A model generated the notes under the pieces. The model saw only the letters and a program-made list of their open reading frames with translations. It had not been told where the DNA came from and did no database searches. A stretch of DNA of 64,000 nucleotides from Phoronis australis (Eukaryota; Animalia; Phoronida), in assembly GCA_002633005.1 (NCBI GenBank), contig NMRA01000243.1, positions 197,150 through 261,149 of the forward strand, given 5' to 3'. This document shows, piece by piece, positions 5,201 to 8,200 of the stretch. The stretch's first letter is position 1; the number at the start of each line of letters is the position of its first letter. Made by a program: the position numbers and the translations under genes.

Positions 5201-8200
5201 CGAATGAAAATACTTAGCGTGTAGTTTAATTTATGACCATTTATACCACATACTAAAGTTTTAATTCAAATTTAGTTTTTCACCAACTCCTTTGCAATAA
5301 CCGAGTCACGTGACCGTACAACAACTGTCTACACAGACACGTGACACCGTCATTGCATGGGCCTATCAAGATGAACGTGGTATAATTACAATTAGAACTA
5401 AACTGTAAGTTTTTGCCTATTTAGCACACAACAAAGCAGAAATTTTATTTTGTCAAAATTTCCAAACCGTAATGAGAATCCAGGACACTTTTCAATTAAA
5501 TTAGTTGATGATTTGCATGCTTTGTTCACGTAGATGATACAAAACAACACAGTTTCCATTATTTTCAGCGAGGTAAACAGCCCTTGAAATTTAAAAGACG
5601 ACAATTATTTCTGCGGGCACTGTGTGAAGAATTACTTTTTAATTAGTTCACAATTTCAAGAGAAGACGTGAACAGAAATTCAGCTTAAACTGCATGTAAT
5701 CAGCATTCGTTTCTAATCCTTGGGTTCAAGGGACAGCGTCCCCCTGACTCGCACCTCAAACTGTCCACAACAAAGCCTCAACAGCGTGTACAAGAAAACC
5801 TTGACTACACCGTCTTAGAACTGTGATGCGGGACAGCAGGGCGCGAGGCATAACTCAGAGAATGGATAAACAGTTACATCACATTACATGCTAGTCTTCA
5901 GTGAACTCTCAAAATGCACAACAGAATCGAGATCAGTTAACATTGATTGCTAAGAAATGCACTGTGACAGTGTTACTGATGAAGAACAAATATCCTCTGT
6001 TCAGACGACACAATTTAATTTTATGAAACGAGAGATCACAGGTAACCTTTCAAGATTCACATTGTTATAAATCGAGACATCTACCAAAACCAAGAAGTTT
6101 CAAAAATGAAGACTTGGGGAAGGGACCTAATCTTTTTACCCAGATCAAAATTGAATTTTTTGTCACTTACCTTTTACTTGTTTGCCAATAAAAAAACATA
6201 AGATGCGTCTACTACTCAGAGCTCAAGAATATTATGGTTTATACAAACGAGACTCTAGTCCAACTGCATACACGATGACCCCCAGATTCAAGCTAACAAC
6301 TCAAGATTTTGAGTAAAAACTCGAAATTTTGGGTTCAGACTCAAACTTTTTGAGTTCAGACTCAAACTTTCAGTTTAAATGCTGGGGTTGCTAATTGCAA
6401 ACTGGGACTAGGTAGCTTTCCACTTAAGCCATAATGCACTCGAGCATAGAATAATAGACATTTATCTTAAGTTTGCACAAAAACAGACTAGAAAGTGACT
6501 AAAAACATTCAAGTTCAATCTCGAGTGAAAAGATTCGATCCGCTGATTTTGGAATTAGCAGCGAAAAAGTAACAAACCTTGTTTTTATTGCAGTACATAT
6601 CGTACAGTGTCTTTAAGTTCTGGTCGTCGTGAAGACTATGCGAGTATAACCGGCTTTCAAAGGCTTCTATTTTCTACAAAAGAATTCGATAAAATAAAAT
6701 AAATGATGACAGAAGTACCTGTCGCTACACAATCCACCAAGTTGCAGCAACACTTGGCTATGTTAATCCAAACACAAAAACCTATTTGCGAAAATAATCT
6801 GGCCCCGAGAAAAGCTGTCACGTAGACTATCGCAGACTTTTTGTGACAATGAATTTTCACTTTTGGATTACGGGAATGGTGAATTCCATACCATAATTTA
6901 GCATCTCAACGTCGCCGACCAATCACTTTGCTAATAAGACCCCTGAGTATAAGTGTGAAAACACTCGCATAATTTTGCGTGGTCTTGGATTTTTTTTTTG
7001 AGAAATTCCTGACAGTGTGTCCAAGGTATGCATCCAAAAAGCAGGCGTAAAATATGAAAAGTATCTCCACTGCCAATAGGTGGCAGCACAATCACATTTT
7101 CTGTAACACGGCTATATTTTCTGCAGCATGACCATAGTTCTGCACCTAACCTACCATAAGTGACACCTTTAGATCAGTATCCTGACATTTCTACAAAATA
7201 AGAAAGTCATGGAAACATTCTCCATAAAACTCTTTAGCTTTGCGAGACCACAAAAATGTTTATTCCCACGACCCAATTTCAAAATCTGGTGTGCAAGACG
7301 GGGCGAGTTGCCACGGACAAAAGGGCAACATCTTTAATTCACAGACATTTTGAGACATTGGCCATGTGGGTGTGAAACGTTTGAACATCCCACTGGACAA
7401 AAGTGGCAATTTGTCGGCATGACAGTCACAATGAACTTTGATGCTAGAAAATATCTTACACAATGCAGATCGCTGTCCAGCACCAACTTTATTGTCATCA
7501 AGTGACAAGGTGTATTTAATCTTGTCGAGTCATATTGGAAAATGGCTATTTCAGAGTTTTCAATCAGAAGGCTTCTGTGTTTGGACTTTTGTCTGGATTA
7601 GCATGTAATCAGCATTCCTTTCTAATCCTTGGGTTCAAGGGACAGCATCCCCCTGACTCGCACCTCAAACTGTCCACAACAAAGCCTCAACAGCGCGTAC
7701 AAGAAAACCTTGACTACACCGTCTTAGAACTGTGATGCGGGACAGCAGGGCGCGAGGCATAACTCAGAGAATGGATAAACAGTTACATCACATTACATGC
7801 TAGTCTTGTTACTTAATCCACAACAAATAAGTAAAGCAATTATTTGAAAGTGTTGATTACCACGAGATTTGTCTAGCTTTTGATCACAAGAAGCCTCTTA
7901 GGTTTCCCTCTATACGGACTTTGAACCCCCACATCCCCTCAATCAAGGCATAGGGCCATCTGACGCCTGCCATGATGCACTCCTTCAACCCCTTGTCCCA
8001 AAAGACGCAATACAAAGTTGCCTAATTGTCTAATATGAATGTAAGGACACCAGGTCCCCCTCATCCAAGCACCGAGCACCGTGCATCTCACGCCTACCTT
8101 AATACACTCCTTCAGACTCTTGTCCCGGATGCCCATGTCTTCGATGGGGTCGAGCAGGGGCACCCCGTCTGGGAACCGCTTCTGCACTTCTTGGATGGAC

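What the first reader, a model, noticed from the sequence alone, without database searches (positions are those of the whole stretch)
5692..7800. Two long SNORD17-like box C/D snoRNAs in adjacent introns of the exosome helicase gene MTREX
Seen: a 200-nt segment occurs twice (5692-5891 and 7601-7800, 3 differences) and identity stops at a terminal inverted repeat. On the MTREX sense strand it has a terminal stem, box C-like GUGAUGU, guide GUUUAUCCAUUC, box D' CUGA, internal hairpins, C'-like AGGAUUA and box D CUGA. Known: the guide is complementary to the 28S segment GAAUGGAUGAAC, and the D'+5 rule points to the U of GAAU. As I recall, this is the guide and target of vertebrate SNORD17 (over 200 nt, hosted in SNX5, 28S U3797). 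Inference: this is an invertebrate SNORD17 homologue in a different host gene, and that host encodes the helicase of the exosome that trims snoRNAs, which could couple snoRNA output to MTR4 expression.
Basis: partly seen in the sequence, partly recalled or inferred. Interest (0 to 1): 0.85.

Follow-up and report, generated by a model that had tools for sequence, protein, structure and literature searches.

The report
Invertebrate SNORD17-like snoRNA pair in MTREX
Two nearly identical copies of an unusually long small-RNA gene sit in neighbouring introns of the gene for an RNA-trimming helicase in an invertebrate animal; they likely guide the same ribosomal RNA methyl mark as human SNORD17, which would make them an ordinary new member of a likely old family that moves between host genes.

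Summary
Observation confirmed. A 207-nt element occurs twice (3 differences) on the MTREX sense strand, in two adjacent introns whose splicing RNA reads confirm. It has a 9-bp terminal stem, boxes C, D', C' and D, and a stable 134-nt insert. DNA depth fits two copies, not a dispersed repeat. SNORD17 is the only Rfam match on the 401 nt around copy 1, end to end, but at 18 bits against a 45-bit cut-off: SNORD17-like, not a curated member. Look-alikes with the same guide core and layout lie in two SERCA introns of a sponge-like animal and in fungal-type snoRNA clusters, where they resemble Neurospora CD53. The guide likely marks the large-subunit U equal to human U3797. This species' 28S was not read; 20 of 22 motif-bearing contigs suggest 8 pairs, a U-U mismatch, then 3 pairs. 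Sense reads cover the element and the intron downstream but barely upstream, as 3'-extended precursors would; no discrete RNA was shown. MTR4 feedback is untested. The scan already noted the CD53-SNORD17 link and an octopus SNORD17-like RNA on other DNA.

The parts
5692..5891 (-). snoRNA copy 1 with terminal stem (box C to box D: 5882-5700, 183 nt)
5876..5882 (-). box C of copy 1 (GUGAUGU, one mismatch to RUGAUGA)
5860..5871 (-). D' guide of copy 1, complementary to large-subunit rRNA; D' box at 5855-5858
5721..5854 (-). 134-nt structured insert between D' and C' (long irregular stem plus short hairpin)
   Evidence: z -4.3
5700..5720 (-). C'-like box, 10-nt spacer (no conserved guide found) and box D of copy 1
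7601..7800 (-). snoRNA copy 2 (C 7785-7791, guide 7769-7780, D' 7764-7767, C' 7623-7629, D 7609-7612)
4843..6577 (-). MTREX intron hosting copy 1 (GT-AG, 1735 nt); box D lies 857 nt before the 3' splice site
6578..6673 (-). MTREX exon between the two host introns
6674..8097 (-). MTREX intron hosting copy 2 (GT-AG, 1424 nt); box D lies 935 nt before the 3' splice site
2294..28938 (-). MTREX (MTR4/SKIV2L2) gene, span of exons matched by tblastn

Best explanation
The two segments are duplicate, intron-encoded long box C/D snoRNA genes of the SNORD17/CD53 kind that are likely cut out of the spliced MTREX introns and likely guide fibrillarin to 2'-O-methylate the large-subunit rRNA uridine equal to human 28S U3797. 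Shown: anatomy, two-copy status, sense position in two spliced introns, sense transcription, complementarity of the D' guide to eukaryotic LSU rRNA, look-alikes of the same layout in two other lineages. Inferred from vertebrate and yeast knowledge: after splicing and debranching, 5'->3' exonucleases trim to the snoRNP and the exosome with MTR4 trims the roughly 900-nt 3' tail; because the RNAs lie far from the 3' splice site, the 9-bp end stem would help assembly (recalled rule, not from a call); the fifth base before D' pairs with the U of GAAU and sets the methyl site. The D-side spacer is probably not a guide. MTREX is most simply a broadly expressed ribosome-biogenesis host, and the second copy a local duplication kept alike by recent origin, conversion or selection.
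For:: SNORD17 is the only match among 4227 families on 401 nt (E 0.028), covering model 1-238 at the element's ends; both copies; 19 of 77 metagenome motif hits carry a C'..D module 120-195 nt after D' (background 1%; 57 lack it, 1 too short); 18 of the 19 fall into two groups, 7 in SERCA introns of one sponge-like animal and 11 near-related fungal-type loci, 4 of which were scanned and lie beside snR61. C-to-D length 183 here, 194-200 there. The fungal-type ends resemble Nc CD53 as printed in supplement file 1 of PMC2780460, for which PMC5824354 gives the same alignment site as snR86 as best target; the guide pairs at one site in LSU-like contigs (-13.7 kcal/mol), 2 of 4 tested confirmed as eukaryotic LSU by Rfam; flanking intron alleles differ by 16 of 241, 32 of 516 and 14 of 187 letters, the two copies by 3 of 207, and none of the 4 listed differences touches a box or the D' guide. 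DNA contig over the element at depth 91 against 44-47 for neighbouring pieces; a real repeat in the same intron reaches 33,000-70,000. RNA reads on the element are all on the MTREX strand; sense reads downstream of each copy, almost none upstream (about 20 expected if even, under 1 seen).
Against: Rfam score 18 bits, far under the 45-bit cut-off, and E 2.2-2.7 when 32 kb is searched. The relatives were found with a motif taken from this element, so the shared guide is partly built in; only the 3' module, length and intron position are independent, and they stand for about two lineages. The middle does not align with any relative (blastn). No pile-up of read ends in either lay, and depth on the element (peak about 8, 4, 2) is below exon depth (about 25, 8, 5) and similar to the downstream intron. 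The duplex is probably only 8 pairs before a U-U mismatch; in 4 of 22 contigs another site paired as well or better. Box C and C' are imperfect. This species' 28S was not read.
Confidence: 0.85

Rival explanations
1. Real snoRNA genes placed in MTREX for feedback: low MTR4 activity would leave 5'-mature, 3'-extended or intron-retaining MTREX RNAs, and the snoRNP would change MTREX splicing or output, as SNORD86 does for NOP56.
For: NEXT (MTR4, RBM7, ZCCHC8) trims intronic snoRNA 3' ends in human cells (PMC10557570 section 8). Reads lie downstream but barely upstream of each copy. Two copies, both with long 3' tails.
Against: No alternative splice joints near either copy were listed. Intronic reads fade before the 3' splice site in the deepest run. 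A 3'-extended precursor is the normal intermediate for any intronic snoRNA. The family sits in SNX5, SERCA and non-coding clusters elsewhere. Conservation of the MTREX location in relatives could not be tested.
Confidence: 0.07
2. A methylation guide for the same U that arose independently of vertebrate SNORD17: any guide for this site must share the antisense sequence.
For: Likeness to the Rfam model is concentrated in the first 35 columns; the score is below cut-off; the inserts do not align.
Against: Convergence on target does not explain the shared rare length (CD_53 is the only fungal C/D family of 200-300 nt), the guide on the D' side just after box C, the structured insert and the 10-12-nt C'-D spacing in three lineages plus the vertebrate model.
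Confidence: 0.1
3. One or both copies are silent snoRNA pseudogenes or a small mobile element; the reads are pre-mRNA background.
For: All 14 RNA reads at 7647 and 7696 carry copy-1 letters; no discrete ends; imperfect C and C' boxes.
Against: Most DNA contig depth also carries the copy-1 letters (8.3 of 10.6 at 7647, 11.7 of 14 at 7618), so reads cannot be assigned to a copy. Two-copy depth, sense orientation of both, intact boxes and guide, and far lower divergence than flanking alleles argue for constraint. Pre-mRNA background would also cover the upstream part of the introns.
Confidence: 0.08

Closest known systems
Vertebrate SNORD17 (Rfam RF00567; human host SNX5, target 28S U3797 per PMC5025248)
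   Same: Box C followed closely by the same D' guide; 27 of the first 35 consensus columns identical; long structured insert with a short hairpin before C'; global match to model 1-238.
   Different: About 40 nt shorter; insert sequence unrelated; 18 bits against cut-off 45; two copies; host MTREX; the target site probably gives U-U where the recalled vertebrate rRNA gives U-G.
Neurospora crassa Nc CD53 / snoStrip family CD_53 (PMC2780460, PMC5824354)
   Same: About 200 nt, cloned and seen on northern blot in Neurospora (table flags C, N; my reading of the flags), same 8-nt guide core after box C, C'-D spacing about 11 nt; best predicted site is the snR86 site.
   Different: Published as orphan; intergenic in Neurospora; has a conserved D-side motif that this element lacks; branched rather than rod-like insert.
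SNORD86 in NOP56 (snoRNA controlling its host's splicing; as summarised in PMC10557570)
   Same: Host encodes a factor of snoRNA biogenesis.
   Different: No alternative splice sites or snoRNA-capped polyadenylated product shown here; this RNA has an ordinary rRNA guide.

Membership tests
box C/D methylation-guide snoRNA | Box C near the 5' end and box D near the 3' end | tested here: met
   GUGAUGU (1 mismatch) and CUGA, 183 nt span
box C/D methylation-guide snoRNA | Terminal stem closing boxes C and D | tested here: met
   9 bp in both copies
box C/D methylation-guide snoRNA | Internal D' and C' boxes | tested here: met
   D' exact; C' degenerate, but its GAUUA core and spacing recur in relatives
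box C/D methylation-guide snoRNA | Antisense element before D or D' complementary to the organism's rRNA | tested here: inconclusive
   Pairs with other eukaryotes' LSU as 8 bp + U-U + 3 bp in 20 of 22 contigs; own 28S not read
box C/D methylation-guide snoRNA | Sense position in a spliced intron of an expressed host | tested here: met
box C/D methylation-guide snoRNA | Accumulates as a discrete RNA with defined ends | tested here: inconclusive
   Sense reads present in 3 of 3 RNA runs, no pile-up of ends, library selection not on record
box C/D methylation-guide snoRNA | Binds fibrillarin/NOP56/NOP58/SNU13 and directs the methylation | not testable with these tools
   needs RIP and RiboMeth-seq
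Rfam SNORD17 (RF00567) as curated | Score at or above the gathering threshold (45 bits) | tested here: not met
   18.0 and 17.7 bits
Rfam SNORD17 (RF00567) as curated | D' guide for LSU U3797 directly after box C | tested here: met
   12 guide letters identical to the model consensus
Rfam SNORD17 (RF00567) as curated | Long structured insert between D' and C' | tested here: met
   134 nt, z -4.3 and -4.5, but not alignable in sequence
fungal CD_53 | Length about 200-300 nt with the same 8-nt guide core | tested here: met
   200 nt with stem
fungal CD_53 | Conserved D-side motif (seen in Nc CD53, the fungal-type loci and L072) | tested here: not met
   Absent here; one of the three copy differences lies in this spacer
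high-copy dispersed repeat | Many genomic copies in either orientation | tested here: not met
   Contig depth about twice single copy; 2 copies in 64 kb, both sense; no whole genome held

The most novel reading that the evidence does not exclude
MTREX carries its own substrate as a sensor: the two snoRNAs, each with a roughly 900-nt intronic tail that MTR4 and the exosome must trim, accumulate as 5'-mature, 3'-extended RNAs, and this feeds back on MTREX splicing or output, a NOP56/SNORD86-like loop for the nuclear exosome helicase, run by a SNORD17/CD53 family that dates back to the fungus-animal ancestor.
Probability: 0.07. Interest if true: 0.6.

Novelty: new member of a known kind. Interest (0 to 1): 0.27.

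Why it matters
It extends SNORD17-like guides beyond vertebrates, to a probably spiralian animal and a sponge-like animal, and fills the gap to the fungal orphan CD53. That points to an old family that Rfam's vertebrate model misses and that length-capped predictors drop (SnoBIRD trained only on C/D snoRNAs up to 164 nt). The long insert is kept in form but not in sequence, which is an open question for human SNORD17 too. The two copies and the new hosts are a tidy case of known snoRNA mobility. Only a shown feedback on MTR4 would make it surprising.

Tried and rejected
No whole genome is held, so genome-wide copy number, the species' 28S and orthologous introns could not be searched. Rfam at gathering level finds only a tRNA in the window. 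No RNA holder was listed by the run index; RNA runs came in by species label. A scan of viral contigs for an LSU motif gave one non-rRNA chance match. MTREX was not found by tblastn in any of the 77 motif loci. The SNORD17 model did not list any of 18 motif loci at E up to 5, including the sponge-like and fungal-type look-alikes, so it is blind at this distance. 57 of 77 motif hits lack the 3' module and were treated as chance. A D-side duplex of copy 2 with another LSU site (-17.6 kcal/mol) was rejected: the +5 base is unpaired, it uses up box C', and most reads and contigs carry the other letter. A third C/D-like stretch at 22696-22820 is at chance level (0.9 expected). A covariance model of the non-window relatives was not built because their alignment failed at the 3' end. 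The control intron 8302-9241 was only partly informative: a high-copy repeat fills part of it and the DNA run had no depth beyond 8791. Literature: no paper for SNORD17 + amphioxus, Um3818 + SNORD17, SKIV2L2 + snoRNA + host gene + intron + mollusc or fungal snoRNAome + snR61 + cluster; SNORD17 + 28S + invertebrate gave one review, seen as a listing only; 'SNORD17' does not occur in the main text of PMC5824354, PMC12309372, PMC13736004 or PMC3511168. The supplements of PMC5824354 could not be read and may assign CD_53 further; vertebrate and metazoan snoRNA surveys outside this library may already list invertebrate homologues.

Full report
1. Observation. The repeat is real: 5692-5898 and 7601-7807, 207 nt, three differences. 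On the minus strand each copy reads: 9-nt stem arm, box C GUGAUGU, five bases, a 12-nt guide, one base, D' CUGA, a 134-nt insert, C'-like AGGAUUA, ten bases, D CUGA, and the complementary stem arm. The C+guide+D' motif occurs twice in the window and never in 100 shuffles. The whole RNA folds at z -3.4 and the insert alone at z -4.3 and -4.5. Identity stops at the 3' arm but runs 7 nt beyond the 5' arm.

2. Host gene. A single exon finds MTR4/SKIV2L2 proteins, and a mussel MTR4 maps in 22 pieces to the minus strand from 28938 to 2294. The best hits are molluscs, a nemertean and an annelid, none close (79% and 62% on two exons; summed scores differ little), so the animal is probably a spiralian without an annotated near relative; this is an inference. 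Stranded RNA reads of the same species label join 4842/6578 (13+3+4 reads) and 6673/8098 (20+9+2 reads) across GT-AG introns. The copies therefore sit in adjacent introns, sense to the host, 857 and 935 nt before the 3' splice sites.

3. Not a dispersed repeat, and constrained. In DNA run X1 the contig over the element has depth 91 against 44-47 for neighbouring pieces, while a true repeat in the same intron reaches 33,000-70,000. In X2, contigs from both flanks of copy 2 run up to or into the element, so copy 2 is not an assembly slip. Flanking intron alleles differ by 16 of 241, 32 of 516 and 14 of 187 letters; the two copies differ by 3 of 207, and the RNA individuals add one listed change (the difference tables were cut, 85 and 92 rows not shown). 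The four changes fall in a hairpin loop (two), in a stem as A-U to G-U, and in the D-side spacer; none touches a box or the D' guide. Most DNA depth at the diagnostic sites carries copy-1 letters, so the differences may be partly allelic and reads cannot be assigned to a copy.

4. Family. At gathering level Rfam finds only a tRNA in the window. On 401 nt around copy 1 the only match is SNORD17, model 1-238, at the element's ends, 18 bits against a cut-off of 45, E 0.028; both copies appear at E 2.2 and 2.7 in a 32-kb search. By my count 27 of the first 35 columns equal the consensus, including all 12 guide letters. Human SNORD17 is listed with host SNX5 and target 28S U3797 (one passage of PMC5025248).

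5. Relatives. A motif scan of metagenome contigs gave 77 loci. 19 carry a C'..D module 120-195 nt after D', against 1% of random windows; 57 do not and 1 is cut short. Seven belong to one animal, where two divergent versions (L041, L072) sit in an early and a late intron of the same SERCA gene, each with its own terminal stem and rod-like insert (z -7.7, -5.2); the best summed protein match is a sponge, by a small margin. Eleven are near-related loci between splice-like signals; the four scanned lie beside snR61, one also beside an snR55-like match. Their ends resemble Neurospora Nc CD53, a 212-nt orphan (PMC2780460: passages and supplement search). PMC5824354 (abstract, passages, first part of section 25) calls CD_53 the only fungal C/D family of 200-300 nt and gives as its best, loose target the alignment site that snR86 pseudouridylates; that this site equals human U3797, and that the human base is both methylated and pseudouridylated, is recalled, not from a call. 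One locus (L006) is probably chance. The limit: the motif came from this element, so the shared guide is built in, the inserts do not align, and the independent evidence is length, 3' module and intron position in about two lineages. I had reached the CD53 link from the papers before one search showed that the scan had noted it twice on fungal DNA, and an octopus SNORD17-like RNA in a ribosomal-protein gene once.

6. Target. This species' 28S was not read. A scan of prokaryote assemblies for the LSU site gave 22 contigs, mostly stray eukaryotic rDNA; 2 of 4 tested match the eukaryotic LSU model, 2 were not listed. 20 read U opposite the tenth guide position, 1 C and 1 G, the last a non-rRNA context. 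The short core would explain why CD53 was filed as orphan. The D-side spacer is not conserved with relatives and its best LSU duplex fails the +5 rule.

7. Expression. All reads on the element lie on the MTREX strand in 3 of 3 RNA runs (about a fifth of each run read), at peak depth about 8, 4 and 2, against about 25, 8 and 5 on the nearest exon; no pile-up of ends was found and library selection is not on record. Sense intronic reads lie downstream of the copies (mean depth 4.3 and 2.0 in X5, 2.4 and 2.0 in X6, near zero in X7) and almost none upstream; about 20 reads were expected there if cover were even, under 1 was seen (bins overlapping repeats and exons left out; mates are not independent). 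Cover fades before the 3' splice site in X5. This is what a debranched intron trimmed from the 5' side up to a bound snoRNP, and not yet trimmed from the 3' side, would give. It is indirect, low-depth evidence, and loss of divergent alleles in mapping could mimic it.

8. Mechanism. Shown: anatomy, position, transcription, rRNA complementarity in other eukaryotes. Inferred from human and yeast work (PMC10557570, passages and section 8): splicing, debranching, 5' trimming by XRN enzymes, 3' trimming by the exosome with NEXT, of which MTR4 is part, then methylation by fibrillarin. So MTR4 likely helps mature RNAs from its own introns, but it would do so for any intronic snoRNA. Ribosome-biogenesis genes are 3.45-fold enriched as hosts in human (passages of PMC13736004) and snoRNAs move among broadly expressed hosts (abstract and passages of PMC3511168). 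No alternative joints near the copies were listed. Feedback is not excluded but has no direct support.

9. Verdict. Real, likely functional SNORD17-like snoRNA genes; not members of Rfam RF00567 as curated; a new member of a known kind. No paper on an invertebrate SNORD17 or on MTREX as host turned up in the searches named under Tried and rejected, which cover only part of the literature. Interest 0.27.

Noticed in passing
L041:6001-6027 and L072:6001-6027 (one contig, about 10 kb apart): Another animal, probably a sponge, also has two SNORD17-like copies in two introns of one gene (SERCA), but strongly diverged from each other; the early-intron copy recurs in several partial SERCA duplicates (L011, L013, L031, L046, L061, L066), one with a changed D box.
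   Followed up: partly
L003, L010, L048, L068: Fungal-type intronic snoRNA cluster: snR55-like, snR61, then the long CD53-like RNA, each apparently in its own intron of a non-coding host.
   Followed up: partly
window 10201-10461: The 3' end of an MTREX exon with its 5' splice site is repeated three times in tandem (87 nt, 72-87% alike); the third repeat keeps the coding letters and a GT donor, so alternative donors are possible.
   Followed up: no
window 22696-22820: Perfect box C overlapping an MTREX 5' splice site, with a CUGA and a 6-bp stem 125 nt on; at chance level in shuffles, no Rfam match.
   Followed up: yes
window 6302-6520 and 8430-8595: High-copy repeats inside MTREX introns (DNA depth hundreds to over a thousand times single copy, RNA reads on both strands), probably small transposons.
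   Followed up: no
window 46667-46738: A tRNA gene (72 bits; anticodon read as GCA, Cys).
   Followed up: no
window 51204-54260: Minus-strand exons that look like GET3/ASNA1 (recalled motifs, not searched).
   Followed up: no
window 11131-11950: An 18-nt tandem array in an MTREX intron gives spurious microRNA matches in Rfam.
   Followed up: no
L067:940-1036: Weak HDV-like ribozyme match (37.9 bits, cut-off 50) just downstream of a motif hit.
   Followed up: no
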